In this document: in pieces, positions 2,630-33,865 of the stretch
Position numbering within the stretch: the stretch's first letter is position 1
Layout of the letters: each line of letters starts with the position of its first letter
DNA from: Mobula hypostoma
Taxonomy: Eukaryota
Length of the DNA: 64,000 bases
Direction of reading: 5' to 3'
Assembly (NCBI RefSeq): GCF_963921235.1
Contig: NC_086108.1
Location: 82,276,001 to 82,340,000, forward strand
Position numbers and translations under genes: made by a program
Notes under the pieces: generated by a model
What the model was told of the DNA's origin: nothing
Database searches by the model: none
What the model saw: only the letters and a program-made list of their open reading frames with translations

Positions 2630-2765
2630 GATTATTGGGTCCAAACACTTATTTAATGATGTTGTCTATAGCTCTGCGATCTGCGGACTGCCTTCTGGTG
2701 CAGACTAGCTTTGTTGCTGATGAGTATTGGCAGTCACTCGAAGTTGCTCACAATATGGTCTTCAA
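2630..2765 (+). CDS. PIGB: PIGB coding exon 2 (first exon in window)
   Basis: cacag acceptor. Encodes [44 protein letters not shown], matching the [15 protein letters not shown] region. 136 nt, followed by the U12 donor ATATCCTT. Confidence 0.95.
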
Positions 2766-2849
2766 ATATCCTTTGTATTTACAAACTATAAATACATAAT
2801 GTAAAAAAAGTAACTTTTTATGTTTTGTTCTCACTGTTCTTTCGGATAC

Positions 2850-3370
2850 AAGATATTTGGTATAACGTTTCAGCACAGTACAGGCCCTTCAGCCCATGAT
2901 ATGTTGACCTTTTAACCTACTCTTGACCCCTCCCTCCGACATAGCCCTCCATTTTTCTATTATCCATGTGCGTATCTGAGAATTTCTTAAATGCCGCAAA
3001 TACACTTGCCTCTACGACTACCCCTGGCAGAGTGTTCCATGTACCCACCACTATGTAAAGAACTTATGCCAATCTCCCTGCAGTTTCCTCTAATCATCTA
3101 AAATTATGCCCCCTTGTGTTAGCCATTTCTGCCTGGGACGAACTCTTTGGTTATCCACTCAGTCTACAGTATGCCTCTCATCACTTCTATCAAGTTACTT
3201 CTCATCCTCTTGCTCCAAAGAGAAAAGCCCTAGTTCGCTCAATCTATCTTTGTAAGACATGTCCTGTAGTCTCAGCAGCATCCTGGTAAATCTCCTTTGT
3301 GCCCTTTCTAAAACTTTCTCATCCTTTCTATAATGATGTGACCAGAAATTAATACAATATTCCAATTTTT
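2850..3370 (-). mobile_element. CR1 LINE 3' fragment
   Basis: LEYCINFWSHHYRKD...LERAQRRFTRML on the minus strand. Confidence 0.85.
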
Positions 3371-3834
3371 TGGTCTGGTTAGGCTGTGTTTTGTCCATCC
3401 ATGCTTGTTTTATAAGATTAAAAACTACACCATGCACACTATTTTGTTGGATGTAGTTTCTTTCTGTCAATTTAAACATATAAATTAGAAGTGGGAATTG
3501 GGTATTTGGCTTCTCAAACATGCTTGGCCATTTAAAATATGAATACTGATATGAAAGTAACCTCAAGTCCATGTTTACACCTAGCTACACTAGCTTTTCA
3601 CCCTCTTGTTTGTCAAGTATCTATCTGTCACTGCCGTAAATACAAGTAAAGACTCTGCTTTGAAGGCTCTCCATAGCCCTCTGAGGAAAGTAGTTCCAAA
3701 TTCATGAATCTCAGAGATGAGGTTATTTTTTCTCTCTGTCTTAATCAGCAATCATTTATTTTTATTCAGTAACCACCTAATTCTAGGAGTTTCCCACAAG
3801 AGAAAATATTTTTCTTATTTTCTCTCTACATTTA

Positions 3835-4530
3835 AACCATAAGACCATAAGATATAGGAGCAGAAGTAAGCCATTTGGCCCATCGAGTCTGCCCACCATT
3901 CAATCATGGGCTGATCCAATTCTTCCAGTCATCCCCACTCCCCTGCCTTCTCCCCATGTCAATCAAGAACCTATCTATCTCAGCCTTAAATGCACCCAAT
4001 AACTTGGCCTCCACAGCCACTAGTGGCAACAAATTCCACAGATTTACCACCCTCTGACTAAAGTAATTTCTCCGCATCTCTGTTCTAAATGGACGTCCTT
4101 CAATCCTGAAATGTTACCATCAAAATCCCATAGAATCTTAAAGGTTTTATTCGGGCTCTCTTTTGCTCTTCCATACTCAATGGATAGAAGCTTAGACTAC
4201 CCAATCTTTCCTAAGACGATTATAGGGTGGATGTGGATGGGATGTTTCTATAGTGGGGGAGTCTAGGAGCAGAGGGCACAGTGTCAGAATAGAAATTCAT
4301 CCCGTCAGAACAGAGATGAGGAGGAATTTCTTTAGCCAGAGGCTGGTGAATTTTGAGTTCATTGTCACAGGCAGCTGTGGAGGCCAAGTCATTGTGTATA
4401 ATTAAAGTGGAGGTTGATAGGTTCTCGATTGGTAAGGGCATCAGAGGTTATGGGGAGAAGGCAGGACAGTGAGGTCGAGATGGATAATAAATAAGTCATG
4501 ATGGATTGAATTCTGCTCCTATGTTTTATG
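3835..4530. mobile_element. Two CR1 3' tails in opposite orientation (3835-4110 minus, 4220-4530 plus)
   Basis: Both resemble other CR1 3' ends in the window (RNFFSQR region plus 3' UTR). Confidence 0.75.
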
Positions 4531-5419
4531 GTCATACTTTCTTTCAGTAAATATTCTTTAAATTGCCTCCAAAATATTGACATTCTTCTGTGAATAAAGA
4601 TTTCAAAACTCTGCTAGCTACTTCGGATGTGGTGTTTCCAAAACCCAAATAACCTCCATACTCTTGCGTAATTTCCTCTTGTAATAAATAATGCTTGTTA
4701 GCACTCCCAACTACTCCTTGTACGTGCATTGTAGTCTTTTGTAAATTGTGCACCAGTTCCCTCTCTGCCTTTTTGCCCTGCAGTCATTCACTATTGAAAT
4801 GACGTTCTTTGTTTTTCCTGTCAAAATGGACATTTCACATGTTCTTAGCCAGATCTTTGCTAGTCATCTGTCCTATCTAAATCATTACATCCTCTTTGTC
4901 TTTCATATCTAGCTTTTGTAATGCATGCAGATTTAGTAATCATAATTTCAGTGCCGTCAAAGAAATTTAAACGAATGGTGAAAAGTTGAGGCTGCTGTGG
5001 TGCACTGCTCATTTCTATCTTACCAACCATAAAAAATGTACTGTTTTCTGTTAAGTTGGTCAAACTTGATTTCCCTTCTGCAAAACCAAGCTTCTTGAAA
5101 ATAAGGGGTCACCCATTTAAGAGAGGTGAGACAACATTTTCTGTCTGAGAGTCATGAATTTTAGAAACCATCTTCATAAAAAAGATAAGGGAGAAACAGA
5201 ATATTAGAACATTTTAAATCAAATGTAGATAGCTACCTTCAAAAACAGAGGTGAAAGGTTAACATGGGCTGATGGGAATGTGGATTTGTGTTAACAATCA
5301 AACCTTATTAATGGCAGTCCAGGCTTGAAGGGTTGAGTGGCCTGTGCTGCCCCGAATTAATTTTGTATAACTCACATTTTGGTGATTATTGTTTTGAGAG
5401 ATATTCTTAACTTTCTCAA

Positions 5420-5537
5420 GTATGGTTATTTAACATGGGAATGGAAAGAAAGGCTACGAGGCTACACCTACCCTTTGATTTTTGCAATCTTCTATAAGTT
5501 GTTGCAAATATTCAAGAAGGACACAGTACAACTGCTG
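5420..5537 (+). CDS. PIGB: PIGB coding exon 3
   Basis: [39 protein letters not shown]; gtaaga donor; 118 nt if it starts at 5420. Confidence 0.93.
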
Positions 5538-11692: not shown

Positions 11693-11797
11693 ATTTGGAT
11701 TCCTCGACTGGTCCAGTCCTTTTTGGCAGCACTGGCAGATGTAAAACTATATTCCATTGTGAAGAAACAGGCCAATGCAGAGATTGCAAAGTGGGTG
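11693..11797 (+). CDS. PIGB: PIGB coding exon 4
   Basis: ttttacag acceptor; IWIPRLVQSFLAALADVKLYSIVKKQANAEIAKWV; gtaagc donor; 105 nt, phase 0. Confidence 0.95.
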
Positions 11798-12237
11798 GTA
11801 AGCTGCTTATCTTTTGTCTTTTCGCATTTATTTTCTTTTGGGTGTATATTGTTGCCCATTAATTGAGCTCTGAAAAATCACATTCATTCCTCAATTCTGA
11901 ACTGAACTGCTCTGAAGTTAGTGCAGAATTGTCTGTTTTTATAGTTAACCTTTATGAAACAATTAATTCCATCATTTGCAAATATAACTACCAATCATAA
12001 TTATTATGTATGATACACTTCGGGTGTTAACAAACAATTAAATCTACGTGTTAGGAGCCAATAATACTTAAGAAATAGTAAAATAATTGACCAATAGTTA
12101 ATAAGCTTTTGTTAGCATCCTTATCTTGTTTGGGTATGTCTAGTGGCCTTGGTTCCCAGTATTTGAACAAAGAATTGTGTGAGGAGCAGCTAGGTTCTCA
12201 GTATTTGAGTTTTGCCTGGCAGTCTTGTCAGCTAGCA

Positions 12238-13472
12238 CAGGGGTCCCCAACCTTTTTTGTACTGCGGACCGGTTTATTATTGACAATATTCTTGTGGACC
12301 GGCCGACCTGGGGGTGGGGGGGTAGGGGTGGCCAGCAGACAAGAGTAGCAGTCAAATATGTCGTGTTTATCCGGAAAGACTACCATGACCATGAAGCTTT
12401 TTGCGGGCACCTGTGTGCGCATGTGTGACTTGTGCATGCGTGTACGTGCCGATTTGTTTTTTTCTACAAATCATTTTTGACGATTCTGTTTTGGGGGGGG
12501 TGCGGGGGAGGTATTAATCACAACCGGAATTTAGGTGATAAGTGGCTAATACACTCAATTTCATTTCTGAAAGGGTTTATCTAACAAATTTAATATTAAA
12601 CACAGCGCATATTTTCCTCACATGAATATAGTGATGTCAATTATCAGGGGAGGACAGAGGAGCTTGAAGTAAGTGTTGAACGAACTTCCAGTAGAAGTGG
12701 GAGAGTCGGGTTCGATATTATCGCTTAAAGAAGAATTGGATAGGTATATGGACAGGAAAGGAATGGAGGGTTATGGGCTGAGTGCAGGTAGGTGGGACTA
12801 GGTGAGAGTAGTGTTTGGCACGGACTAGAAGGGCAGAGATGGCCTGTTTCCATGCTGTAATTGTTATATGGTTATATAAGTCACTTATAAGGCAACAGCA
12901 TCATAACATTTTAAGTAACATTTGGATATTAAACACACAGCACATATCTTCCCCGTATGAACATATAAAATCATTGCAACACACCAATATCACTGAATCA
13001 GTGGGAGCCCTGGGCTTGTTTCCCTGCAACAAGACGGTGCTATCGAAGGGTGATGGGAGACAGCGATACTCGAAGGGGCTTCCTTATGTCCAGTCTATTC
13101 TGCAATTTAGTTTTCGTTGCATTCATTGCAGAGATATGTTGGAAATGGAAGCAACGTTTTCAGTGCTTTCGTGGCTATCTCAGGATATTTAGCCTTGACT
13201 TTGATCCAGAATGCCGGCAGAGATGTTATGTCAAACATGTATTTCAGCCCGCCGTCATTTGCAAGCTCGAGGTGTTGATCTCCTTCCCGCGCTGACATGG
13301 ACGACGCGCAGGTAATGACCTCGCGTGCGTTCAAGCTCAACAGTGGGCGTGACAGGGAATGAGGAAAGGTGCAGCTGACTCATATCGCCAAATCATATCG
13401 TTTCCTTGCAGCCCGGTAGCACATGCTTTGCGGCCCAGTATCGGTCCGTGGCCCGGTGGTTGGGGACTGCTG
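12238..13472 (-). mobile_element. hAT (Charlie/Buster-like) non-autonomous DNA transposon
   Basis: TIRs CAGGGGTCCCCAACC / GGTTGGGGACTGCTG; imperfect 8-bp TSD agctagca/agctaggg; dimerisation-domain remnant FWIKVKAKYPEIATKALKTLLPFPTYLC. Confidence 0.9.
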
Positions 13473-13769
13473 AGCTAGGGTGACAGTACAATGTCTGTAC
13501 ACTGTATCTTGTCAGTACACTATTTTAACCCTTGACTTGCTGCATCTTCCACATGTATGAAACTTGCTGATGTATGACCATTCCAGCTTGAAAATGAAAT
13601 TTAGAAGTGACGCACTAGGCAGACATTTCATGGAACAAGCATTTAAAGGCACAGTATTTGCCTGTGACATATAAAGGGACCTTTCGTATTCTTGCTCTCA
13701 GTGGTGCCATTTATTTCTCTGTGACCTTTTCAAATATACCCTGCCCCACATCCACCTGTCATCCATCTA

Positions 13770-13900
13770 AACTAATTTCGAGTTATCAATTAACCTGCAG
13801 CACTTGGGGGAAACCCACATGGTCAGTGGGAGTACATGCAAACTGCACATGGACAGTATGTAAGTTCAGAATTGAACCAGGGTGGCTGGAAAAATGCACC
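13770..13900 (-). mobile_element. Decayed V-SINE/HE1-like SINE
   Basis: gaaacccacatggtca...gagtacatgcaaactgcaca (V-domain-like) next to a B-box-like gaattgaacc. Confidence 0.6.
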
Positions 13901-14566
13901 AGCATCGCCTGATGGAACAGTATCTGTACATTATAACACATCAATAGATCCATAATGTGAGGGGACTCATTCCTCTGGGCAAAGTGACCAACTTATTGAA
14001 CCACATATAAGAAAAGAGAAGCTAATTTTAATTCTAACTGATTGTATGGTGCCATTATCAAGCCAAAAGTTGGACAGAGAAGCTTGAATTCATGTTAAAT
14101 GAATTATGTAAGAAGAGCGTATTTTTAGATGCACTTGTTAGTGCTGTTCCTATCAACTTTTTCTGTGCTACCTCATAATCTATGCCAGCTGTTAGTCCGC
14201 CTTATGATTAGCCTATAAATAAGGACAAAGTTGCATTTACAAATGAACAATATTTATTCTAGAAGTTGATTGCAATGTAAAAATAAGGAAAAATTCTGCA
14301 TTAAGATAACTACTAATGAATCAACATTTTACAATGGACTATGAAATCAAAGGTGGGAGGGAGGAAGGAACAGATATGATATCAAATTTCCTAGTTTCAG
14401 CTGTCATTAAATAATTCACCCTGTTTAACAACAGTCAGGTGTAAATCCCAGATGAATGGCTGGCAGTTTATAATGTGTGCATTCTTAAGTTCTAAAGCTG
14501 ACACGAGGGGACTTAACCTCAAATGAAACCAAAGTATTTGTGTGTGCCTGTATTGGTTTTGGTTTG

Positions 14567-15150
14567 GAATTAGTTTATTATTATTGTCACATGTACTGAG
14601 GTACAGCAGAAAAAAGTTGCCTTGCATAATGTTCTTACAGATTAGATAAAGCGTAACTGCTACAGCAAAGTGCAGTGCAGGTAAACAGTAAGATGTAAGA
14701 CCAAAATAGAGTAGCATTATGAAGTTAAGAGTCCCATGTATTGTGTCAGGGAACTATTTAATAGCTTTATAACAGTGGGATAGAAGCTGTCCTTGAACCT
14801 GATGGTATGTGCTTTCAGGCTTCTGTATCTTCTGTCCGTTGGAAGAGGGGAGATTAGAGAAAGTCAAGGATGGGGCGGGGGGGGGGGTCTTTGATTTTGC
14901 TGGCTGTTTCACCAATGCAGTGATAAGTATAGACAGAGTACATAGAGGGTAGGCTGGTTTGCTGTAATGTGCTGAGCTGTGTCCACAACTGTCTTCAGTT
15001 TCTTGTGGGCATGTGCAGAGCAGTTCCCATATCAAGTTGCTGACATCCAGATAGGATGCTTTTAGGGTACATCGATGAAAATTGGTAAGGGTCAATGGAG
15101 ACATTTCAAATTTCTTTAACCCCCTGAGGAAATAGAGAAGATCATGGGAT
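14567..15150 (-). mobile_element. Rex1/Babar 3' fragment
   Basis: Reverse-complement similarity to the 3' end of the 545-2493 element. Confidence 0.75.
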
Positions 15151-15230
15151 TTTTAGGCTGTTGAAAGTAATATCAATGAATATTCATACAAATTAAATTT
15201 GAGATATTTGTTTTGTTTTATTTCTTTCAG

Positions 15231-15361
15231 TACTTCTCTCAGTTGTGCTCCTGGTTCACATGGTATTGTAGTACCCGAACTATTACCAACAGCATGGAAG
15301 CTGTTCTAACCAGCTTTATACTTTATTACTACCCTCTTCAGGGAACAAAGACTGGAAGCAG
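15231..15361 (+). CDS. PIGB: PIGB coding exon 5
   Basis: tttcag acceptor; [43 protein letters not shown]; gtcagg donor; 131 nt. Confidence 0.95.
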
Positions 15362-15984
15362 GTCAGGAAAATGTTTGATTATTCTAAACCTTTTAAAAAT
15401 GCCATTGTGTAACTTAGCACATTATGTTGATGTGACAAAATGAAAGATTTGTACTTTGAACTTCCCAGAGAGTATCCTGCTTGTAGCTTTACTCTTGGCC
15501 AAGTTCACTTCCTAACTTCCTTTTTAAATAGAAGGATGTTATTGCTCAAAGCCATTGAAAACATCACATGGAGTTTCAGTCCTCAAAAAAGCATGTTTTG
15601 TGCACAGGAATGTGAGAAATTTATAAAGGTTATGGAAAGAAAGGAATGTAGCCTGGACAATTTAGGCAGTCCCATTCCACCCTGTTTCCATCTTTTTCTC
15701 CCCAGGCAGAAACATGTAGTTACTTTCTGTGCAGTAAGTAAAAGCTGCAGATCTGGTGTTGAATTTGGCTCCGTATAAAAGAGTATCACTAGCAAAGTAG
15801 GTTGTTCTATGTAGAAAAATACTTAATTTATCATTTTTGAATCAGAGATGATGGCATTGAGATATTTTAATGCATTCATTTATGTTCCCAATGCAGCTGC
15901 CACTTACTCATTAAGTCCTTGAACCCAGAAGCCAGTGGTTCTGGAAGTTGCATTTAAGACAGAGTAGGGAAGGATTTATAGACA

Positions 15985-16655
15985 TAAGAGACTACAGATA
16001 GTGGAATCCAGAGCAAAAGGCAACTACTGGACAGGCTCAGTGCATTAAGCAGTAAATGTGGAGGGAAGTGGACTGTTGACATGAATCTGAAAAGCTGGTG
16101 GTCATGTCCAAGCAGACTGTGTAGGATGAACCAGGAACAGGGATGGATGGAGTGAAAGGGTGACTAACCAAGAAATACAAAACAGTAATTGGCTGCTAGA
16201 TGAACCAGGGAAAAGAGGATGTTGGAGGTGGACTGGGCAGTGTGAAGACGTGCAACGCACTGGGTAGGGGGACATGAACAAGCTGAGAAGGCAGAGAGAA
16301 CCATGCGAGGCACAGGGGTAAAGAGAATGGCAGAGGCAGCAGGATGATCTGCAGTCGATCTGGCAAACTGAGCCTGAACCTAGTGGGTTGAATGGAGCCT
16401 AACTGGACCTGACAGGGAGATGTCCTAGTGGACCACGTAGGGTGAGTCAGGAGTAGGTTAGATAATGAAGGGACAAATGATCAAGCAATGCACAGTCGTA
16501 ATCAGCCGCAGGGTGAACCATAGATGATTGGTGGTGGATGGCAGAATATGGGGGGTGGGGGGTGGGAATGAGGAGGGTGATGCAGAAAGGATGTGGGTAA
16601 ATGGTACAGGGATGGTATGACTCTGACATTTTGGGTTGAGACTCTTAGAGCAGGT
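15985..16655 (-). repeat. Old Penelope-type terminal fragment
   Basis: Begins gagactacagatagtggaatccagagcaa like other copies; purine-rich body. Confidence 0.4.
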
Positions 16656-17249
16656 GAAATTAAAGACTTAGATTTGTTTTTACATCTAGATAAGGATTTA
16701 ATTTTCTTTCTTGAAATGTGAAGTGAGCCAGTTGATTTTTTGCACTCTCTGCAGTTTCATGGTTACCATTACTTACACCAGCTCTTTAAATCTAGATTTA
16801 CTGACTACATGAATTTCAGTTCCTCAGCTGCCAATGGTATCCTTTAAATTTATGTACACAAATCAGAGAATATTAGGCAAGTAACTTAATGAACTACCCC
16901 ACCTCTAAACGGAGTTTACTCTGATAATTCTCTCCTGAAAAGAATAACTTTACTGACAATTTTTGTTGTATTTTGATCCATGCATTTCTTTTGAAACTGC
17001 ACAATATGTAGCAAAGCTACATATTATTGTTGTTGTATTCGTGTGAGCAGAACTTCTGACTGTTATGTCTTTGGGATAAGAGATTAACATTATTTGTATT
17101 TTCCTGAAAAGAAGTTTATTATTGACTTGTTATTTGATAATGCCGGTGGGGATTTCCTGACAGTTTTTAGTCTTTTCTATAAAAATCTGTACATGCATAA
17201 CGATTGGAAAATGGAAGAAGTAAAAAGGAGAAACATTAATATAGTCTGT

Positions 17250-17610
17250 AATCAGAATCAGGTTTAATATCACTGGCATATGTCATGAAATTTGTTATTT
17301 TGCGGCCGCATTACATTGCCATAAAAACTGTAAATAACGATAAGTATATATAAAAAAGAAAATAAAATAAGTAGTGCAAAAAGAGAGGGAAAAATACTGA
17401 GGTATTGTCCATTCAGAAATCTGATGGCAGAGGGGTAGAAGCTGTTATTCACAGTTATTTTGTAAACAACACTATTCTTTGCATTTCTGGTCAGATGCTA
17501 AATGCGTTTCATTGGCTTTGTATCTGTACTCGGCACAATGACAATAAAGTTGAATCTGATCTAATCTAAAAACATTGAGTGTGTGTCTTCAGGCTCCTGT
17601 ACCTCCTCAT
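17250..17610 (-). mobile_element. Rex1/Babar 3' tails (nested)
   Basis: aatcagaatcaggttta tail and NSFYPSAIRFLNG on the minus strand. Confidence 0.75.
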
Positions 17611-17811
17611 TTCTGCCCATCTGTAGCGACTAATGTAAATAGGAAGGCAGTGGGAAATTAGGGAAATAAAATGACAAGATTATGTGGAAGTGGAAACCAT
17701 GGAATGAGGACAGGACAGGACCTGTAGAAATTATCACTTTAATATGGAAGTAACATCTGTTGGAAAGGATGGGATAAGGTTAATATAGTACTTTTTATAG
17801 TTATGGGGGCA

Positions 17812-18102
17812 ACTGTGAAGCATAGTGGAAGGAGCATAATGATTTGGGGCTGCTTTGCTGTCTCAGGTTCTGGACAGCTGGCAATCGTTGAGGAAACAAT
17901 GAATTCAAAATTGTATTAAGACATTTTACAGGAGAATGTCAGGGTAGTGGTCCGTCACCTGAAGCTTAGTTGGATGATGCAATAAGACAATGATCTGAAA
18001 CGCAAAAGTAAATCAGCATAAGAATAGTTTAAAAGGAAGAAAATTCGTGTTATGGAATGGCCAAATCAGAGTCCGGATGCAAACCCAGTTGAGTTGCTGT
18101 GG
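17812..18102 (+). mobile_element. Tc1 transposase catalytic-domain remnant
   Basis: TVKHSGRSIMIWGCF...Q*DNDLK...[15 protein letters not shown], the DD34E region, with stops. Confidence 0.88.
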
Positions 18103-18127
18103 CTGATTGCGTATGTTCTATTCACAG

Positions 18128-18268
18128 TTCAAAATATCTCGCTTTGACTGCATTTGCATTTACTGTGCGTCCCACTGCTATTATTCTTTGGCTGCCGCTG
18201 GTATTTACTCATTTCTGGCAAGAAATGAAGAAACTGGATCTTCTCTTACACAAATGTCTACCAGTTGG
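18128..18268 (+). CDS. PIGB: PIGB coding exon 6
   Basis: ttcacag acceptor; [46 protein letters not shown]; gtaagt donor; 141 nt. Confidence 0.95.
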
Positions 18269-19619
18269 GTAAGTAAAGAGTGTGCTTCATATCTGCCTGG
18301 ACAATTTCAGGCACATCCATTTAAAGAGCCAATGCTTTAATTTTTGCTTTTAAATATTATAGAACAACTAAATTATTTGACTGCTGAGACTGTATATGTT
18401 CATTCATAAAAAGATAAATGTTTTTATTCTGGAACAGAAAAATGCAAAAATTAAAACTATGTCATTGATAAACTATTACAGTAAATTCTTAAATCAACAG
18501 AAGCTTGGCACCAATTTAAGGATTATCTGGAAAGTTGTGACTTGTCCCCAGTAAAACCCATTGTGACACACCAATTGTTTGCCTGTCTCATTTCCACACT
18601 AACTTGGTATAACTTGGAAAAACAGAATAACTTTTCATTGTGTTGATAGAAAGTTTCTTTTTTCTTATTTATTGGAAATGGGTGGCACAGGCTATAATTT
18701 GTTGCCCAGTACCAATTATCCTTGAAGGTGGTGAGCCACCTGCTGGACTGCTGAATTCTTTCTGGTGCTCCTGTGGTGTTGCTGGATAAAAAGTGTCAGT
18801 GATAATGGAGGAAGAAAGGACTTTTGACAATAACTTCCCAAGCAACTCTTCACTATTTCAGATTGTGTCTTTTTCACAGTTGTGTGGGAGAATATTACCC
18901 TCAGCTTGAATACTTGGGGACTTGATTCCATATAATCATGACTCGTATGAGGATTTAATTGTTGGTTTCATGGAAATTATTCACTCCACTGACATTTTTT
19001 TGGCTTCATCCCTCACCACCTATGTGGTTTATCCAAATTACACTTGGCTAGAGTTGTGCCCAGCTGTGCATTAGGCTCATCCTAAGAGCTCTTATAATCT
19101 CAGAAATCATTAGAAATAGAGCTTGACCTGGACATGTCTGTTGTTTTACACACACAGAACAGAAAATTCTCAACACAGGTCTAAGGTCTTTCATCCTCCT
19201 GGTCATGAGTCTGGAAGGCTGGTTACCTGGGGTAGAAAATTGCATTTCACCAGCGGTAACAGAAATAGTAATAGCACTTCAGATTGTTCTGTGGAGTTTT
19301 CTCACTTTTAAACATCTTGAGAAAGGAATGGGTCCAATAAAACGAAAACATGTTATTACACATTATATTGGTGGACACCTGTCACCAATCATCCGGAAAT
19401 ATTATTCTGCAAGTATCTCAGCAACTGGTTAGAATGAGCTAACATAACATGTTCTGTTAATGGCATCACATCTGGGTTGTGAATTTGTAGGGTAGAAATG
19501 TATGCCTTGCTTTGGGTTGATGTGTCCATTAGTTTTAAGAATAGTGTAATGAATGTTTCCCTTCCCCTACCCCGGAATGTGATTTTTTTTTTCCCATTGT
19601 AAATGTGTTCATTTTGCAG

Positions 19620-19671
19620 ATGCTTATCACTTGGGATTTCACTGATCATTGACCGAATATTTTATGGTGAG
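19620..19671 (+). CDS. PIGB: PIGB coding exon 7
   Basis: ttttgcag acceptor; CLSLGISLIIDRIFYGE; gtgggc donor; 52 nt, phases fit both neighbours. Confidence 0.92.
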
Positions 19672-20267
19672 GTGGGCATTTTTCATGGTTTTGAAAGATC
19701 AATCAGAGTTCTTGTTTTGTATTTGAATACAGAGTAATCAACCAATCATAAATTTATTTGCCTGGCTTCCTTTGAAAATAAAATTATTGCATTGCAATCT
19801 ATTGGTTTTGCATACCTACATTTAGTGTTTTTGTTATCTTCAGGTGTATGTTATTCTTGCATTTCTTGAAATATTACAGTGTTAAGTCCTAAGATTTAAC
19901 CAACCTAAAGAAATATGTGTTTCTTTAATCCTGCCAGGAGTACTTTTAATCTGTCTGAATACACTGGCTAATTATAGAAAGGATTATTGTCCATTTGTGT
20001 CACTAATTTATAAATTCCAGCTATATTCACTTAAGTCTTTAAAACAGAGCTCTGCACCATTCCATAGATTTTATAAATCTTAAAAGGTGTGAATTCAGCT
20101 TCTTGGATTCAGAAACTACTGAGGCATTCCAATAATTGAATAGAAAATACACTATGGCAGGCTTCATAGGACATTTGCTGATAGCTATCATCCTGTTCCA
20201 TTTATAAGCATGCAATAGCAATTAATTCTTTTCTCTCTTTGATGTTTTTCCCCCACCCTCATTTCAG

Positions 20268-20479
20268 TGGGTAATGGTTCAGTGGAATTTTCTCAGATTC
20301 AATGTGATTGAGAACATGGGGTCATTCTATGGCTCCCATCCCTGGTACTGGTACTTCACTCAAGGATTTCCTGTTATCATGGGAACACATTTGCCATTCT
20401 TCATCCATGGATGTCTTTTGGCACCCAAGAGGAACAGAATTTTACTACTGGCAGTTCTTTGGACAATTATTGTATACAG
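20268..20479 (+). CDS. PIGB: PIGB coding exon 8
   Basis: tttcag acceptor; [70 protein letters not shown]; gtgtgt donor; 212 nt. Confidence 0.96.
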
Positions 20480-20486
20480 GTGTGTA

Positions 20487-23400
20487 CCAATATATAACCA
20501 TATAACAATTACAGCACGGAAAAAGGCCATCTCGGCCCTTCTAGACCGTGCCCAAGGCTTACTCTCACCTAGTCCCATCGACCTGCACTCAGCCCATAAT
20601 CCTCCATTCCTTTCCTGTCCATATACCTATCCAATTTTTCTTTAAATGACAATATCGAACCTGCCTCTACCACTTCTACTGGAAGCTCATTCCACACAGC
20701 CACCACTCTCTGAGTAAAGAAGTTAGTCATACTTTATTGATCCCGGGGGAAATTGGTTAAGTTCCCCCTCATGTTACCCCTAAGCTTTTGCCCCCTAACT
20801 CTCAACTCATGTCCTCTTGTTTGAATCTCCCCTACTCTCAATGGAAAAAGCCTATCCATGTCAACTCTATCTATCCCCCTCATAATTTTAAATTGCTCTA
20901 TCAAGTCCCCCCCTCAACCTTCTGTGCTCCAAAGAATAAAGACCTAACTTGTTCAGCCTTTCTCTGTAACTAAGGTGTTGAAACCCAGGTAACATTCTAG
21001 TAAATCTTCTCTGTATTCTCTCTATTTTGTTGACACCTTTCCTATAATTCGATGACAGAACTGTACACAATATTCCAAATTTGGCCTTACCAATGCCTTG
21101 TACAATTTTAACATTACATCCCAACTCCTATACTCAGTGCTCTGATTTATAAAGGCCAGCATACCAAAAGCATTCTTCATCACCCTATCCACATGAGATT
21201 CCACCTTCAGGGAACTATGCACCCTTATTCCTAGATCACTCTGTTCTACTTGATTCTTCAATGCCCTACCATTTACCATGTATGTCCTATTTTTGATTAG
21301 TCCTACCAAAATGTAGCACCTCACACTTATCAGCATTAAACTCCATCTGCCATCTTTCAGCCCACTCTTCTAACTGGCCCAAATCTCTTTGCAAGCTCCC
21401 TGCTTCATTATCCACAACGCCACCTATCTTAGTATCATCTTCATACTTACTAATCCAATTTACCACCCCGTCATCCAGATCATTAATGTATATGACAAAC
21501 AACATTGGACCTGGTACAGATCCCTGAGGCACACCACTAGTCGCTGGCCTCCAACCTGACAAACAGTTATCCACCACTACTCTCTGGCATCTCCCATCCA
21601 GCCACTGTTGAATCCATTTTACTACTTCAATATTAATACCTAACGAGTGAGCCTTCCTAACTAACCTTCCGTGTGGAACCTTGTCAAAGACCTTACTGAA
21701 GTCCATATAGACAACATCCACTTCTTTACCCTCGTCAACTTTCCTAGTAACCTCTTCAAAAAATTCAATAGGATTTGTCAAACGTGACCTTCCACTCACA
21801 AATCCATGTTGACTGTTCATAATCAGATCATGTCTATCCAGATAATTATATATACCATCTCTAAGAATACTTTCCATTAATTTACCCACGACTGACGTCA
21901 AACTCACAGGGCAGTAATTGCTAGGTTTACTTTTAGAACCCTTTTTAAACAATGGAACAACATGAGCAATTCACAATCCTCTGGCACCATTCCCGTTTCT
22001 AATGATATTTGAAATATTTCTGTCAGAGCCCCTGCTATGTCTACAGTAACTTCCCTCAAGGTGCTAGGGAATATCCTGTCAGGACCCGGAGACTTATCCA
22101 CTTTTGTATTCCTTAAAAGCACCAATACTTCCTCTTCTTTAATCATCATAGTTTCTATAACTTCCCTACTTGTTTCCCTTACCTTACACAATTCAATATC
22201 CTTCTCCTTAGTAAATACTGAAAAAAAAGAAATTGTTTAAAATCTCCCCTATCTCTTTTGGCTCCACACGTAGCTGTCCACTCTGATTCTTTAAGGGACC
22301 AATTTTTGTCCCTCACTATCTTTTTGCTATTAATATAACTGTAGAAACACTTTGGACTTATTTTCACCTCACTTGCCAAAACAACCTCGTATCTTCTTTT
22401 AGCTTTTCTAATTTCTTTCTTAAGATTCTTTTACATTCTTTATATTCCTCAAGCACCTCACTTACTCCATGCTGCCTATATTTATTGTAGATATCTCTGT
22501 TTTTCTGAACCAAGTTTCCAATATCCCTTGAAAACCATAGCTCTCTCAAACTTTTAACCTTTCCTTTCAACCTAACAGGAACATAAAGATTCTGTACCAT
22601 CAAAATTTCATCTTTAAATGACCTCCATTTCTCTATTACACCCTTCCCATAAAACAAACTGTCCCAATCCACTCCTTCTAAATCTTTCGCATCTCCTCAA
22701 AGTTAGCCTTTCTCCAATGAAAAATCTCAACCCCAGGTCCAGGCCTATCCTTCTCCATAATTATATTGAAACTAATGGCATTTTGATCACCGGACCCGAA
22801 GTGCTCCCCACCACATACCTCCGTCACCTGACCTATCTCGTTCCCTAACAGGAGATCCAACACTGCCCCTTCTCTGGTTGGTACCTCTATGTACTGCTGC
22901 AAAAAACTACCCTGCACACATTTTACAAACTCCAAACCAACCAGCCCTTTTACAGTATGGGCTTCCCAGTCTATGTGTGGAAAATTAAAATCTCCCACAA
23001 TCACAACCTTATGCTTACTACAAATATCTGCTATCTCCTTACAAATTTGCTCCTCCAATTCTCGCTCTCCATTAGGTGGGCTATAATACACCCCTTTAAA
23101 TGTTACTACACCTTTCCCATTCTTCAATTCCACCCAAATAGCCTCCCTAGATGAGCCCTGTAATCTATCCTGCCAGAGCACCGCTGTTATATTTTCTCTG
23201 ACAAGCAATGCAACACCTCCCCGTCTTGTCCCTCCGATTCTATCACACCTGAAGCAACAAAATCCAGGAATATTTAGTTGCCAATCACGCCCCTCCTGCA
23301 ACCATGTTTCACTAATAGCTACATCATCATATTTCCAGGTATCAATCCATGCTCTAAGCTCATCCACCTTTCTTACATGCTCCTAGCATTAAAATAAATG

Positions 23401-24693
23401 CATTAAAGAAATTCTCCACCTCTGACTCTCTGTTTATCACTAATGGTGCAAACAACTTTACAAGCTTTTTCTTCTCCCCTACATCTGTTCCTATACTCTT
23501 GTTCCCCTCCCCCCTTGTATCTAGTTTTAATCCACTGGAGCCTCTCTAGCAAACCTACTTGCAAGAATATCTGTCCCCCTCCAGTTCAGATGTAAACCGT
23601 CCCGCTGGAACAGTTCCCACCTTCCTTGGAAAACTCTCTAATTTACTAATAATCTGAAGCCCTCCCTCCTGCACCATGTCTTCAGCCACGTGTTGATCTG
23701 CAGTATCTTACTATTTCTAAACCCGCCTGCATGTGGCACTGGTAGCAATCCTGAGAATGCTATCCTGGAGGTCCTGTCCTTTAACTTGTCGCCTAACTCC
23801 CTAAACCCATCTTTCACTCACTCTTCCTACCCATGCCATTGGTCCCTACATGGACCACGACATCTGGCTGCTCACCCTCCCTCTTGAGAATACTGGGAAC
23901 TCGATCCGAGATATCGCAGACCTTGGCACCAGGGAGGCAACAGACCATCCGGGATTCTCGATCTCTTCCACAGAACCTCTTATCTGTCCCCCTAACTATC
24001 GAATCCCCTATCACTACTGCCCTCCTCTTTTCCCTCCTTCCCTTCTGAGCTGAGGGTCTGGTCTCAGTGCCAAAGACGCAGCCACTGCAACTTGTCCTGG
24101 TAGGTCACCCCATCAACAGTACCCAAAATGGTATACTTATTATTGGTAGGAATGGCCACAGGGGTGCTCTGCTCATTCTGTCTATTCCCCTTCCCTCTCC
24201 CGACATTCACCCAGCTACCTGCCTCCTGACTTTTAGGGGTGACTATCTCCCTGTAACTTCTGTTTATTTCTGCCACTGCCTTACGAATGACCCGAAGTTC
24301 ATCCTGCTCCAGCTGCAGTTCCCTAACTTGGTTTGTCAGGAGCTGCAGCTGGATGCACCTTTTACAGGTGTAGTCATCAGGGACAATTGTACTCGCCCTG
24401 ACTTCCCACATCCTGCAAACGGAGCACTCAACTCCCTAACTGCTGCCTCCATTACCTACTCCTAAGTTAATTAGAGTAATTAAAGGAACTTACCCAGCCT
24501 TACCTCATGGGAGCAGGCTCGTCCTCTGCCTCTGCTTGCCGAAGCCTCTCGAGCCAAAGCCTTCCTACTCTGTCTCCCACTACTCCGTCGCCTGCTCTGT
24601 TAATCTGCTCGCTTTTTTAAACTCTCCCGCTGTCTCAAGGGCCGACTTTCACGCGCTTGCGCAGTCGTGCCCCGTTCAGCTGCCGAAGAAATA
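20487..24693 (-). mobile_element. CR1 LINE, essentially full length, decayed
   Basis: ORF1 with CKRC and leucine-repeat region plus IGDSIVRG esterase; ORF2 APE and RT fragments; tail ttatatggttatat; candidate TSD TGTGTA (20481-20486 / 24694-24699). Confidence 0.95.
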
Positions 24694-25309
24694 TGTGTAA
24701 AGAACAGTGGCTATGTGGGATTGAAGACAGGACCAGAATCCCTTATAGGTTTAAAACTTGGGGTTTTTGTGTGTCTATATATATTGAAGTAATGAATTAA
24801 GATCGCACCTTAAAACACACTCTGATCTCTTCAGTGTAATTCTGTAGCCACTTTCATGGGGGGGGGGAATCTAATAAAAGTTTCTTGAACATTAAGAGCA
24901 AGGCAATGTAGTCTCTTTGAGATGTTATTAGAAAATTCAACAAACTTCATTTTTAAAGAATCTTAAAGCTTTAATAATTAAAAATTACAGAATATTGGTC
25001 AGTGCAATATATATGTTGAAGTCAAACTACTATCTTAGTCATGGCTGTGCCAACTACTTAACCCCAACTGCTCACATCAGGTTTTGCTGGAGCAATCCGT
25101 TAATTATATTTGCTAGCTTTGCTGTATGTTCCCATTATTCTGCTTTGATTTTTTTCTTTAGAATAAGTACTTATGTGGAATAATTTCTTGCTTTGGATTT
25201 TAATATAGAAATTTAAAGTGGGAAATAGACTCACTACCACATCTTATTTTTCACATACAAGTCTCCTTTTTTCCCCCAAGGGAAAATGAAGGCTTCTGTT
25301 AATTACAAA

Positions 25310-25505
25310 AGATTCTGTGAATGCTGGAAATCCAAAGTACTACACAAAGTGCTGGAGGAACTGTAAATCAGGCAGCATCTTTGAAAGGCTCTATATAGTT
25401 GATGTTTCTGGCCAAGTCCCTTTATCAGAAGGTCTCAAAATGTTGACTGTTTACTCCCCTCCATTGATGCTGCCTGACTTGCTGCATTCCACCAGCATTT
25501 TGTAT
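25310..25505. repeat. Inverted pair of Penelope-type terminal repeats
   Basis: tgctggaggaa...tcaggcagcatc is mirrored by gatgctgcctga...ttccaccagca. Confidence 0.7.
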
Positions 25506-25834
25506 TTTTTTTTTAAATTAAAACTTTTATGACCTTAGGTTGCCTGAAAGGGCTTTGGTACCAATAATGAACTGTGATACCAAAAAAAGCACGAGAATAT
25601 AGTCACTGTTATAATATAGGAAATGTGGCAGTGAAATTCCACAAACAGCAGCTAACTGGCCAAATTTCGTTGTTTAAGGTAATTTTTGAGGGATTAATGT
25701 AGGCTGGGATATTAAGAGATGTCTGTCTGGTGCACTGATACACAGCGTAATTAGCTTCATCTACATTTCATGTTCATTTTCTGTCTCCAGAATGCTTGTA
25801 GTTTTGTAACCTTGTAAATTTTTTTTTATTACAG

Positions 25835-25899
25835 CTTCTTAAGCCACAAAGAGTTTAGATTTATTTATCCAATAATGCCCATCTGCATGGTATTTTGTG
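25835..25899 (+). CDS. PIGB: PIGB coding exon 9
   Basis: ttacag acceptor; [21 protein letters not shown] containing the HKEFRF motif of the ALG9/PIGB (GT22) family; gtaggt donor; 65 nt. Confidence 0.96.
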
Positions 25900-26760
25900 G
25901 TAGGTATCCTCTTGATAATTTTAGCTCAAATATTAGCCAACATTTGCTGTTATTTAAAAAAAAAATAAAAGATCTTAAAAGTTTTCTACATGGTGTACTT
26001 GGTTTGGAAAGTAGAGAATGGATGAACAATTTCAATATTAAATGAATAATTAGTTCAGGTATCAATCACTAAAGAAGTGGTTTTGAATGCTGACTTTAAA
26101 AAGCATTCAAAAAGATCACTGTTGTGTGAATATCAACACTGCTGCCTTTGATTCCTATAGGGCATCAGTACTTAGGAACAGTGTTGTGGCTGAGTAAGTT
26201 CTAAGTTCACATTTGAAGAATTCAAGTAGGCACCAAACTAGGTGAAACATTTCAGAGAATGCAAAATTATGATTTGAATACAATTCAGGTTAAGGTAAAA
26301 TCTAAATATTTCTAAACAAGTCTTTATTTTGAAATGTGTTAGATTTTGAAATTAGGGAATCACAGTACACAAATTTAAAATGAACTTTATGGAGTCAGCT
26401 AATTTAAGTGATAGTTACATTTCAATAAACTATTTAAAAACTTTTTTACATCATTCTCACTGTTACTAAATGCAGGAATATTCTGTGAGAACATGAATTC
26501 CTCTGACCACTGATCTCTGGAGGTGACATAGGTGAAATTTAGCCTGCAGAAATGAGTAATGGAGGATGTGTAATAGTGCATGGAAATAATGACAACAATT
26601 ACTAATTTTCTGTGTTTAACTCATGTGTACTCTGATGTTGCTCTCAGATTTACTCCATTAGAATAGTATATTCTAAGTGTCTTTGGGGGTAATAGTCCTA
26701 ATTGTTCTCAATGCAAATCCCCATCCCATGTCTCTGATTCTAGCCTGTTTACTTCTAGAG

Positions 26761-26839
26761 GAGGGGTTCCCAAGCTTTTTTATGCCACGGACCAATACCA
26801 CTCAGCAAGGGGTCATGGACCCCAGGTTGGGCACCCCTG
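26761..26839. mobile_element. 79-bp hAT MITE
   Basis: Perfect 8-bp TSD TTCTAGAG (26753-26760, 26840-26847); TIRs AGGGGTTCCCAA / TTGGGCACCCCT. Confidence 0.88.
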
Positions 26840-27170
26840 TTCTAGAGGATGTTTGATGACACATTTTGTTGTGTTATTAGAAATAAGTTTGTGTTTTACT
26901 TGTTTTATCCTTTAATCTTACATTTTATAAAATATTGAAAAACTCTTAAGCAATTTATTCCTGAAAATTGAGAGTAAATTTGGTAAACTGCATAATTTGT
27001 TTAGATTATTAGTTTAACTGGTTGCTGAGCCATTATACTTTGTCCTCTTGTTTGTGTACAGAATTTTTTTAAGATTCTGTACAGTCATATTAATTCAAAT
27101 AGAACTATGTACTAAGCGTTTTTTCTTGCTCTTCTCCCCCCATAATGAACCTGCCAACTTCTATTTGCAG

Positions 27171-27387
27171 GGTATTCACTGGCTAATTTGAAAGCTTGGA
27201 AGAAACCAGCAGTCATTTTCCTGTTTCTTTCCAATTTGTGTTTAATTCTGTATACTGGATTAATTCACCAGCGTGGAACACTGGATGTAATGCACTATGT
27301 TCAGAAACTCTGTAAGGGCACCATGCTGGAGAAGGAAGAGCCCTCTGTGTTCTTTCTGATGCCTTGTCATTCAACTCCATTCTACAG
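27171..27387 (+). CDS. PIGB: PIGB coding exon 10
   Basis: tttgcag acceptor; [40 protein letters not shown]...[12 protein letters not shown]; gtatgt donor; 217 nt. Confidence 0.96.
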
Positions 27388-29177
27388 GTATGTTGAGTAC
27401 ATAAAACTGCTAATATCGAACTTGAAATGACCACAACTGTGTGGAGTTTGACATCCTTGTGCATGTTTTGTATAATTGTGTGCTGGCAAAAACAGATTTG
27501 GAGGGAATAGTTCATTTACTGGCCAAGTCTATGAGAACTAAACATGGAAAGGTTTCCAGGTAGCAAAGGTTCTAATTTGTGATAAAGGCTCTATATATTC
27601 TTTCCAGATAGATGAAATGAGTTATGGAAAATTGAATTAACTTCTAAATTTATCGTAAGTTCAGAGTGACATGGCTTAAAACAACATTTCTTCAAATAGC
27701 CATCACTTTGTGTGCTGAAAATGCAAATTGGTAATGAGTAGTGGTTTAAAAAGGTATGTTTTAAAGTTAACAGTATCTGATAATTCAACTGATAAATTTA
27801 CTATAATGATACTTGTAATATTGGCAATATGCTCACTGCTAATTATAATCATGTTAGTGCTTGATCATTTCTAAAGAACTATGAGATGAACTTTATTCTT
27901 CCTTTCTTCTCTCCTTCTGACCAAAAAAAATTATAATTCTTACATTTTTTTGTAAGTTGTGTGGTTTGTATAAAAATACATGGACAGGAGAAAAATATAG
28001 TTCATATTTCATGAGAACTGTGTGTAACTTGTATTTGAATCTAAATTTTAAAATGCAAAAATTATTATTAGGGTTATTGCAATTTGCCTATCCCAACAAT
28101 AGGTCAACGGCAGATGCAATCTCAATAGCTCTTCACACAACTTTAGACCACATGGACAACACAAACACCTATGTCAGGATGCTGTTCATCGACTATTGCT
28201 CAGCATTTAATACCATCATTCCCACAATCTTGTTAGAGAAGTTGCAGAACTTGAGCCTCTGTACGTTCCTCTGCAATTGTATCCTCAACTTCCTAACCGG
28301 AAGACCACAATTTCTGTGGATTGGTGATAATATCTCCTCCTCACTGATGATCAACACTGTTGCAACTCAGGGCTGTGCGTTTAGCCCAATGCTCTACTCT
28401 CTTTATACCCATAACTTTGTAGCTAGGCATAGCTCAAATACCATCGATTAAATTTGCTGATGATACAGCCACGGTTAGTAGGATCTCAGGTGGTGACGAG
28501 AGGGTGTACAGGAGTGAGATATGCCAACTAGTGGAGTGGTGCCGCAGCAACAACCTGGCACTCAACGTCAGTAAGACAAAAGAGCTGATTGTGGTCTTCT
28601 GGAAGGGTAAGATGAAGGAGCACATGCCAATCCTCATAGGGATCAGAAGTGGAGAGAGTGGGCAGTTTCAAGTTCCTGGATGTCAAGATCTCTGAGGGTC
28701 TAACCTGGTTCCAACATATCGATGCAGTTATAAAGAAGGCAAGACAGAGACTATACCTCATTAGGAGTTTGAAGAGATTTGGTATGTCAACAAATAAATG
28801 CAAAAACTCCTATAGTTATACCATGGAGAGCATTGTGACAGGTTGCATCACTGTCTGGTATGGAGGGGTGGGGGCTACTGCACAGGACCGAAAAGAAGCT
28901 GCAGAGGGTTGTAAGTTTAGATGGCTCCATCTTGGGTACTAGCCTACAAAGTATCCAAGACATCTTCATAGAGTGGTGTTTCAGAAAGGCAGCATCCATT
29001 ATTAAGGACCCCCAGCACCCAGGATATGCCCTTTATTCACCGTTACCATCAAGTAGGAGGTACAGAAGCCTGAAGGCACAAACTCAGTGACTCAGGAACA
29101 GCTTCTTCACTCTGCCATCCGATTCCTGAATGGACATTGAACCTGTGAACACTACCTCATTTTTTTAACATATATTA

Positions 29178-30749
29178 CAGGTGTCCCCCGCTTTTCGAAC
29201 GTTCGCTTTACGAAACCTCACTGTTACGAAAGACCTACATTAGTACCCTGTTTTCGCTTTCAGAAGGTGTTTTCATTGTTACAAAGAAAGGCAGCGCATG
29301 CCCCGAGCAGCCACTCTTTCACGGATTCGGAACAGCGTTGCTTAAACACGTTGCATTGAACAGCCATTAGCAAGATGAGTTCTAAGGTGTCGGAAAAGCC
29401 TGAAAGAGTAAGGGTGTTACACTTAGTGTTAAACTAGACATAATTAAGCGTTTCAATCGTGGTGAACGAAGCAAGGACGAAGTGAGTTTGGCTTGTGGAA
29501 GTTGACGAAGATGATGTTGAAGAGGTTTTGGCATCCCATGACCAAGAACTGATAGATGAAGAGCTGATGCAATTGGAAGAGGAAAGGATAACAATTGAAA
29601 CCGAATGCAACCGAATGCAGAAAGTGAAGCAACTGCGTGAGATTTTCACTGCAATGATAAAGTACGACTTTAATTTTGAAAGGGTACGTAGGTTTAGGGG
29701 ATATTTGCAGGATGGTTTGAGTGCTTACAAACAAGTGTATGATAGAAAAGTGCGCGAGGCTCAGCAGTCAAGCAAGCCTTCCACATCAGCCACAGCCGAC
29801 GATGAACCTCGACCTTCGACATCGAGGCGGGCAGTCATAGGAGAAGATGAGCTGCCTGCCCTGATCAACGATGAGATGACACCCCCGTGTCCCACCACCC
29901 CAACCCCCGGGCCCCGGACAGATACTGTACCGATTCGTGAAGAACGCAGCGGTAGCCGGGAGGCACACAGCACATCGTTAAGAAAAAAGCTGAAATAAAC
30001 ATGCTAATTAATTAGGTACTGCCTAGCACGTAATTGTCGGCCCAGATCAGAAGCGATGCAATCGGAAATCGCCTCTGATCTGCGCCGACATTTACGTGCC
30101 AGGCAGCACCTAATTAATTAGCATGTTTACTTCAGCTTTTTTCTTAACGATGTGCTGTGTGCCTCCCGGCTACCGCTGCGTTCTTCACGGCAATGTATCG
30201 GGTCGGCTGCCCAGAGGGTAGGGGCCACTGCACCACCCAGCCTGCAACGGCTCAGTCTAACACACCATCATCAGTGTGCTCGGCGCTGTTTTCCCAATTC
30301 CGGTAAGTGATACTACACTGTACATACATTATTTCTACTTTATATAGGCTGTGTATTTTTACGTGTTATTTGGTAGATTCGGCAGCTTCATAGTTTAAAG
30401 GTTACTGGAGAGCACGTTTATGCCAACAGCGCTTGCATGAGATTTTCTGCCAAAAGCGCTTGCGTGAGATTTTCACTACGGAGATCTGTGCAGGCAATCG
30501 TTGTAGAGAAGTATTTCTACTTTATATAGGCTGTGTATTTATCATATCATTCCTGCTTTTGCTAAATGTTACTGTTATTTTAGGTTTTATGTGTTATTTG
30601 GCATGATTTGGTAGGTTATTTTTGGGTCTGCAAGCGCTCACAAAATTTTCCCATATAAATAAATGGTAATTGCTTCTTCGCTTTACAACATTTCGGCTTA
30701 CGAACCGTTTCATAGGAACGTTCTACCTTCAGATGGCAGGGGAAACCTG
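29178..30749 (+). mobile_element. Tigger/pogo-like DNA transposon, internally deleted
   Basis: TA TSDs; ends CAGGTGTCCCCCGC and GGCAGGGGAAACCTG; psq/CENP-B HTH remnant GVTLSVKLDIIKRFNRGE joined to an acidic C-terminal remnant EVDEDDVEEVLASHDQELIDEEL; no DDE domain seen. Confidence 0.85.
29936..30189. repeat. Long inverted repeat (122-bp arms, 10-nt loop)
   Basis: Arms 29936-30057 and 30068-30189; about 6 mismatches by eye. Confidence 0.95.
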
Positions 30750-31926: not shown

Positions 31927-32107
31927 CTATGTTCATTGCCCAATAAAAATGGACTTTCTGGAATGCCCTCCTGACCTGAGTAGAAATATTTCCTATGTTG
32001 ATGAAGCTGACTTGTTTTTCAAGGAGTCCCTTACGTGGTTGAACACAAGATTTTATAATCAAGCCTCCCTTCCCACTCATCTAGTCTTGTACAATGTATT
32101 GGAACAG
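31927..32107 (+). CDS. PIGB: PIGB coding exon 11
   Basis: catcag acceptor; YVHCPIKMDFLECPPDLSRNISYVDEADLFFKESLTWLNTRFYNQASLPTHLVLYNVLEQ; gtatgc donor; 181 nt. Confidence 0.96.
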
Positions 32108-33634: not shown

Positions 33635-33865
33635 AAAACACACAAAATGCTGGAGGAAGTCAACAAGTCAGGCAGCATCCATGGAGGGGAATAAACAGTT
33701 GATGTTTCAGACCGAGGTCCTTCATAAGGACCAGTCCCAATGTAGTGTCTCAGCCTGAAACATCCCAGTCTGTTTATTCCCCTCCATAGATGTTGCCTGA
33801 CTTACTGATTTCTGCAGCATTTTGTATGGGTTGCTTGAGATTTTCAGCATCTGTGGAATCTCCTG
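33635..33865. repeat. Inverted pair of Penelope-type terminal repeats
   Basis: atggaggggaataaacag is mirrored by ctgtttattcccctccat; decayed hammerhead cores at the centre. Confidence 0.75.

What the first reader, a model, noticed from the sequence alone, without database searches (positions are those of the whole stretch)
2761..5435. PIGB minor-spliceosome intron appears to have non-canonical AT-AA ends, with a frameshifting AG one base away
Seen: exon 2 ends TTC AA and is followed by ATATCCTTT, a consensus U12 5' site. The 3' end reads TTCTTAAC tttctcAA G TAT GGT, with no AC between the branch motif and the exon. Conserved [12 protein letters not shown] is retained only if the intron ends at AA (5419), giving AA+G = Lys. 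Using the AG (5420) gives AAT ATG GTT ATT TAA, an immediate premature stop. Established: U12 introns are defined by the 5' site and branch point and tolerate rare AT-AA/AT-AG ends. Inference: this is a lineage-specific derivative of an AT-AC intron, and 1-nt acceptor slippage could send some transcripts to NMD and limit GPI-anchor synthesis. Gene predictors are likely to mis-model it.
Basis: partly seen in the sequence, partly recalled or inferred. Interest (0 to 1): 0.75.

Follow-up and report, generated by a model that had tools for sequence, protein, structure and literature searches.

The report
Ancient AT-AA minor intron in PIGB
In what is likely a devil ray, the PIGB gene (it helps build the lipid anchors of cell-surface proteins) has a rare-class intron that ends in AA and is cut out exactly there in an assembled sequence; the matching human intron is already catalogued with the same ending, so this is likely an old shared feature, not a ray oddity.

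Summary
Intron 2766-5419 of PIGB has a U12 donor, a U12 branch motif and an AA end. An 11-exon model using AT-AA matches the Mobula hypostoma RefSeq protein at 494 of 494 residues. One contig of a probable RNA run joins the exons exactly there (three other runs did not cover the exons). Contigs from two other organisms join in the same register, and DNA of another organism has the same AA, so it is no assembly error.

The 'lineage-specific AT-AC derivative' reading fails. The human intron is already listed as U12 AT-AA with the same 8-nt branch-to-end spacing. Mis-modelled proteins from chimaera, frogs, birds and a bat imply the same end. Only the G that opens exon 3, and so the AG, is typical of sharks and rays. 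No AT-AG junction was seen, but contigs drop rare forms. Human data point to intron retention (about 0.3) as the main leak. The scan had no earlier PIGB note; it noted AT-AA minor introns in another genome.

The parts
2630..2765 (+). PIGB coding exon upstream of the minor intron (exon 2 if a single coding exon lies before the window), 136 nt; ends with two bases of a split Lys codon
   Evidence: covered by contig 17 of run X7
2766..2774 (+). U12-type 5' splice site ATATCCTTT (A-type)
   Evidence: consensus RTATCCTTT in PMC1635337
2766..5419 (+). AT-AA minor intron, 2654 nt, phase 2
   Evidence: X7 contig skips 2654 nt with 4 ambiguous letters, 0 other letters, 0 gaps
3182..4502 (.). interspersed-repeat pieces inside the intron (3182-3365, 3838-4109, 4227-4502), two in inverted orientation; no known role in this splice
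   Evidence: self-BLAST, inverted arms, very high repeat depth
5404..5411 (+). U12 branch motif TTCTTAAC (candidate branch A at 5409 or 5410), 8 nt before the intron end
   Evidence: identical in organism B DNA
5418..5419 (+). AA 3' splice site, the productive acceptor
5419..5420 (+). AG one base downstream; would frameshift to a stop at residue 91; use not observed
   Evidence: absent from the joints and loose ends shown
5422..5423 (+). AT at +4; would frameshift (stop at residue 90); the human counterpart is used at 16 vs 372 reads
5433..5434 (+). AC at +15 inside exon 3; in frame, would delete YGYLT; matches Hypanus sabinus RefSeq isoform X2
5420..5537 (+). PIGB coding exon downstream of the minor intron (exon 3), 118 nt
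11693..38541 (+). remaining nine PIGB coding exons up to the stop codon; the nine introns after exon 3 are all GT-AG

Best explanation
This PIGB intron has the donor and branch signals of a minor (U12-type) intron and is removed at AT-AA, giving the intact protein; the AA end is likely inherited from the common ancestor of jawed vertebrates. Inferred mechanism: U11 and U12 read the donor and branch motif, and the acceptor is set mainly by its short fixed distance from the branch site, a 5' A accepting any last base. So AA, 8 nt after the motif, is used and the AG one base on is mostly passed over. As in human, splicing is probably inefficient, with retention (stop at residue 98) the main leak and small slips to +1, +4 or +15 a minor by-product.
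For: Shown here: exact joint 2765^5420 in X7; same register without gaps in X14 and X20 (organisms C, D), and identical branch-to-exon DNA in X1 and X9; 494 of 494 identity to XP_062920584.1; Lys at the junction in 21 of 22 elasmobranch species. From papers: human PIGB chr15:55320411-55321272 is U12 AT_AA, retention 0.29 rising to 0.76 after CENATAC depletion and 0.20 to 0.60 in ZRSR2 mutants (PMC8280824 supplement rows); 372 reads in 14 tissues, 4 cDNAs, 34 ESTs (PMC4176328 supplement). The human acceptor has an AC three bases upstream yet AA is the listed main site. Human ABHD18 has an AT-AA intron followed by G. AT-AG appears disfavoured (PMC3584512). Ancestry: 19 of 21 models with an insertion at the junction have Asn before YGY and 0 have Thr; 9 proteins of 8 species read L-N-x-x-N.
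Against: Only one contig (depth 9.5) from the window's own organism spans the junction; X5, X6 and X8 did not cover the exons, and the RNA label is the tool's guess. X14 and X20 each carry 2 other letters, 3 of the 4 not located, so their first exon base is not certain. U12 dependence was not tested in the ray. The branch A lies 9-10 nt from the end, short of the 11-13 nt optimum in PMC3584512, and the AG would be one base nearer that optimum. The ancestry claim rests on predicted proteins, not on genomic alignments; one X. laevis model (P0308) ends in Asn but lacks the L-N. One preprint lists human PIGB among AT-AC sites.
Confidence: 0.88

Rival explanations
1. Lineage-specific conversion of an ancestral AT-AC intron to AT-AA in rays.
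For: AT-AC/AT-AA switches between human and mouse are documented, for example MSH3 (PMC1557818 Table 3). A preprint names PIGB among human AT-AC 3' sites.
Against: The main human intron is AT-AA. Read-through models imply AA in chimaera, two frog genera, birds, bat, apes and dog, and none implies AC. [quoted passage not shown]
Confidence: 0.03
2. Regulated 1-nt slippage to AG sends a sizeable share of ray PIGB transcripts to NMD and limits GPI-anchor synthesis.
For: The stop at residue 91 lies 1208 nt before the last junction. The AG would be 9 nt after the branch motif, inside the 9-12 nt range of the 11 human AT-AG rows shown (counted by eye). U12 acceptor choice is error-prone, and human PIGB slips to +4 at about 4%.
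Against: 0 of 3 junction-bearing contigs use it (weak, as contigs drop rare forms and NMD would deplete it). AT-AG appears disfavoured, and only 1 of those 11 rows has a spacing as short as 9. None of the 4 human PIGB rows is a +1 junction. ABHD18 is annotated AA|G.
Confidence: 0.1
3. Assembly error: the genome really has AC at 5418-5419.
For: None found.
Against: X1 matches with 0 differences, and the independent organism B contig has the same letters. Human is AA too.
Confidence: 0.01
4. The cut lies one base further right at both ends (TA..AG, Lys from AAA), or the joint is a template-switch artefact at the 4-nt repeat shared by both ends.
For: Both ends translate as K-Y in tblastn, and 4 letters fit either side of the joint.
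Against: The X7 contig has 0 other letters and only 4 ambiguous ones, so the base after AA is G, which excludes the shifted cut. The same register appears in three organisms from three studies and encodes the conserved protein.
Confidence: 0.01
5. An in-frame AT-AC acceptor 15 nt into exon 3 is a real co-dominant isoform that deletes YGYLT.
For: AC at 5433-5434 gives K-WEW, as in Hypanus sabinus isoform X2 (P0154).
Against: It is 24 nt from the branch A, it is in 0 of 3 contigs, and it removes residues invariant or nearly invariant in the alignment. Other species' models use different ACs (-3 in apes and dog, about +27 in human, chimp and gelada), which suggests noise or pipelines that favour AC.
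Confidence: 0.07

Closest known systems
Human PIGB minor intron chr15:55320411-55321272 (U12, AT-AA; de Wolf et al. 2021 PMC8280824 supplements; Parada et al. 2014 PMC4176328 supplement; Olthof et al. 2019 PMC6717393 supplements)
   Same: Same codon position and phase, ATATCCTTT donor, AA end, 8 nt between branch motif and end, AT at +4.
   Different: Length 2654 vs 862 nt; branch motif TTCTTAAC vs CTCCTTAAT; exon opens with G (Lys, AG at +1) vs T (Asn, AT at +1); the ray lacks the AC at -3.
Non-canonical AT-AA U12-type introns (Sheth et al. 2006 PMC1557818; Larue and Roy 2023 PMC10639083)
   Same: AT-AA is the commonest non-canonical minor terminus in animals and plants; such introns are often mis-mapped.
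   Different: Sheth found that 14 of 24 non-canonical introns switch ends between human and mouse; this one appears to have kept AA from chimaera to human (inferred from predicted proteins).
A-type (AT-AN) CENATAC-dependent minor introns (PMC8280824)
   Same: AT donor; the human ortholog is in this set and responds strongly.
   Different: Dependence not tested in the ray.
Human ABHD18 AT-AA intron followed by G (NM_001319307.1; row in the PMC8280824 supplement)
   Same: AA|G acceptor with an AG one base on.
   Different: Unrelated gene; 11-nt spacing instead of 8.

Membership tests
U12-type (minor) intron, A-type | 5' splice site RTATCCTTT at the true donor | tested here: met
   9 of 9 at 2766-2774, at the joint
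U12-type (minor) intron, A-type | branch sequence close to TTCCTTRAY | tested here: met
   7 of 9 positions match at 5403-5411; identical in organism B
U12-type (minor) intron, A-type | short branch-to-3'ss distance (optimum 11-13 nt) and no long polypyrimidine tract | tested here: met
   9-10 nt from the branch As, just under the optimum and equal to the human ortholog; only 8 nt follow the motif
U12-type (minor) intron, A-type | removal from the transcript at AT-AN ends | tested here: met
   X7 contig, skip 2654, 0 other letters; run type is a guess by the tool
U12-type (minor) intron, A-type | dependence on U11/U12/U4atac/U6atac and CENATAC | not testable with these tools
   shown in print only for the human ortholog; no genome is held for this window, so ray snRNA genes were not sought
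Ortholog of the human PIGB AT-AA intron | same codon position and phase in an orthologous gene | tested here: met
   F-x|YGY split codon in both
Ortholog of the human PIGB AT-AA intron | AA end shared by descent | tested here: inconclusive
   implied by read-through models in chimaera, frogs, birds and bat; no genomic alignment beyond organisms A and B
Canonical AT-AC minor intron | AC at the used 3' end | tested here: not met
   AA at 5418-5419 in DNA of two organisms
Regulated unproductive splicing (AS-NMD) switch | a stop-bearing isoform made at measurable, regulated levels | tested here: inconclusive
   stops predicted; no such junction in 3 contigs, and no raw reads were offered

The most novel reading that the evidence does not exclude
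The weak AA end and tight 8-nt branch spacing of this intron have been kept by selection since the origin of jawed vertebrates, because slow minor splicing (retention plus slips to +1/+4) acts as a throttle on PIGB and GPI-anchor synthesis; sharks and rays added an AG decoy at +1 through the Lys codon, a natural test of AA versus AG choice by the minor spliceosome.
Probability: 0.15. Interest if true: 0.5.

Novelty: new member of a known kind. Interest (0 to 1): 0.17.

Why it matters
Mostly ordinary: it is the ray ortholog of a human intron already catalogued as U12 AT-AA. Two modest points remain. First, the AA end and its spacing appear to be as old as jawed vertebrates, whereas many non-canonical ends switch even between human and mouse; six paper searches showed no paper on this in sharks or rays. 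Second, the intron trips annotation pipelines (27 of 325 retrieved proteins are abnormal at this junction), which matters for anyone using PIGB models. If AA were shown to be selected as a throttle, PIGB would be a clean case for the long-debated idea that minor introns limit expression.

Tried and rejected
No whole genome is held for the window, so no genome-wide survey of minor introns or snRNAs. No run listed was on record as RNA and none was kept as raw reads, so junctions could not be counted. X5, X6 and X8 had no cover on either exon: no evidence either way; 16 joints and 269 loose ends of that call were not shown. Dietrich et al. 2005 (PMC1370826) is not held; its results are cited only second-hand. 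PIGB was absent from the main texts of PMC1557818, PMC10639083, PMC2831892 and PMC7367187 and from the one supplement of PMC11347168. My first reading of the m6A preprint, that human PIGB is AT-AC, was dropped. The acceptor region has no unusual fold (z -0.85), so no support for structure or A-to-I editing there. No Rfam match in the window. One search used wrong coordinates for three exons and was replaced. No look-alike stretch among earlier scan findings.

Full report
Verdict. The intron is a real AT-AA minor-class intron in PIGB, but it is the ortholog of a human intron already catalogued with the same ends. It is not a ray-specific oddity, and the proposed slippage to AG was not seen.

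The sequence. The motifs are not enriched in the window: donor 3 found vs 1.64 expected, branch pattern 29 vs 30.06. Their position is what counts: the chance of a donor at one given site is about 1e-5 and of a branch motif within 12 nt of the acceptor about 3e-3.

The gene. tblastn placed eleven PIGB exons between 2630 and 38541. With the AT-AA intron the model is identical to Mobula hypostoma XP_062920584.1 at 494 of 494 residues, against 7, 13 and 15 differences to three other rays tested; the other nine introns are GT-AG. The first 42 residues of that protein lie outside the window. PIGB is named GPI mannosyltransferase 3 by the sources.

Candidate acceptors. Offset 0 (AA) keeps the frame with Lys. 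Offset +1 (AG) stops at residue 91 and +4 (AT) at residue 90, both 1208 nt before the last junction; +15 (AC) is in frame and deletes YGYLT; retention stops at residue 98. Stops this far upstream are predicted NMD targets by the 50-nt rule used in PMC6717393.

Transcript and DNA evidence. One search listed 23 runs, all contigs, none on record as RNA. Of four probable RNA runs of organism A, one (X7) covered the exons. Its 751-nt contig, depth 9.5, skips 2654 nt with four ambiguous letters, no other letter and no gap, which is the AT..AA cut and excludes a cut shifted to TA..AG. The other three gave no exon cover. On 5345-5640, X14 (organism C) and X20 (organism D) run from exon 2 sequence into 5416-5537 without a gap, the same register; each has two other letters, three of the four unlocated. 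DNA contigs of organism A (X1, possibly the source) and organism B (X9) span the stretch; X9 differs only at 5379, 5384 and 5498. So AA is no assembly error. In all, 3 of 3 junction-bearing contigs use offset 0. Contigs drop rare forms, so low-level slippage is not excluded.

What is in print. PMC8280824 (passages; supplement rows) lists human PIGB chr15:55320411-55321272 as U12 AT_AA. Its branch motif is also followed by eight bases. Retention is 0.29 in controls, against a median of 0.115 for affected A-type introns, and rises to 0.76 after 48 h of CENATAC depletion and from 0.20 to 0.60 in ZRSR2 mutants. PMC4176328 (passages; supplement rows) gives 372 reads in 14 tissues for AT-AA and 16 reads in 2 tissues for an unannotated +4 AT-AT junction; none of its 4 PIGB rows is +1. 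PMC6717393 (passages; supplement rows) lists the intron as minor in human and mouse, without the mouse end, and scores human reads as 100% cryptic at both ends, which I infer is aligner misplacement. PMC1557818 (passages and tables) counts 3 human and 4 mouse AT-AA introns. PMC10639083 (passages and section 30) calls AT-AA the commonest non-canonical minor terminus. PMC3584512 and PMC1635337 (passages) give the consensus, the 11-13 nt optimum and the statement that AT-AG appears disfavoured. Against this, bioRxiv 10.64898/2026.10.16.759739 (passages and section 8; supplements closed) lists PIGB among GENCODE AT-AC sites. It also says most of these lie in an exon of another transcript, and a human model with a downstream acceptor exists (P0273), so I infer it means an alternative site.

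How old the AA is. Of 325 proteins held, 293 carry the exon 3 motif and 266 of these have standard spacing. Of the 27 others I dropped the window's own exon and five N-terminally short models, leaving 21 with an insertion. Where a model reads through the intron's end, the residue before YGY reports the last two intron bases: Asn means AA, Thr would mean AC. 19 of 21 have Asn, 0 have Thr, and 2 (rat, guppy) look like donor-side read-throughs. Nine proteins of eight species (Callorhinchus, Ascaphus, two Xenopus, three birds, Myotis) read L-N-x-x-N, that is the branch motif, two codons, then AA; the window reads L-N-F-L-K. One X. laevis model ends in Asn without the L-N. This is indirect, from predicted proteins, but it places AA and the 8-nt spacing in the ancestor of jawed vertebrates. 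These few lineages cannot separate selection from the rarity of an A-to-C change. What is typical of elasmobranchs is Lys at the junction (21 of 22 species), which in this ray comes from a G and creates the AG; Lys also occurs in bichir, gar and some teleosts.

Mechanism. Shown: signals, ends and product. From the literature: a 5' A can splice to any last base, and distance from the branch site matters. Inferred: distance sets the acceptor here. Human uses AA although an AC lies three bases upstream, and human ABHD18 is annotated with AA followed by G. The ray's AG would lie nine bases after the motif; the 11 human AT-AG rows shown have 9 to 12, only one as short as 9 (counted by eye). Some +1 use is therefore possible but probably small. 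By analogy with human, retention is the likelier leak.

Annotation. 27 of the 325 proteins are abnormal at this junction: the 21 insertions plus six others (donor read-throughs in Lerista and Scyliorhinus torazame, the +15 form in Hypanus, a downstream form in human, chimp and gelada).

Scores. Best explanation 0.88. Novelty: new member of a known kind, its human ortholog already known. Interest 0.17. Six paper searches listed no paper on this intron in cartilaginous fishes; subscription journals and unseen supplements, such as the full tables of PMC10639083, may hold it.

Noticed in passing
window 5433-5434: In-frame AC 15 nt into exon 3 matches Hypanus sabinus RefSeq isoform X2, which lacks YGYLT; real minor isoform or pipeline bias toward AT-AC.
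   Followed up: partly
window 5422-5423: The +4 AT acceptor used at about 4% in human PIGB is also present in the ray.
   Followed up: partly
proteins P0027, P0104, P0184, P0218, P0224, P0226, P0302, P0305, P0311: Mis-modelled database proteins preserve the translated intron end and can be used to read the terminal dinucleotide without genomes.
   Followed up: yes
window 694-972: A LINE-like stretch of the upstream intron matches the N-terminus of Hemitrygon akajei PIGB isoform X1 (77 of 93 residues), which suggests that model starts in a retroelement.
   Followed up: no
window 2880-2901 and 5260-5281: A 22-nt inverted pair (82%) near the two ends of the minor intron, and longer inverted repeat arms at 3840-4536; probably repeat-derived.
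   Followed up: no
window 41070-41213: Matches the extended C-terminus of Hemitrygon isoform X2 (42 of 48 residues): a possible alternative last exon or part of a neighbouring gene.
   Followed up: no
window 16837 (+) and 41618-41626 (-): Two more U12-like donor matches; their number is at chance level and neither lies at a PIGB exon edge.
   Followed up: no
window 44000-61000: Long ORFs there look like LINE reverse-transcriptase fragments by eye; about a third of the window is self-repeated.
   Followed up: no
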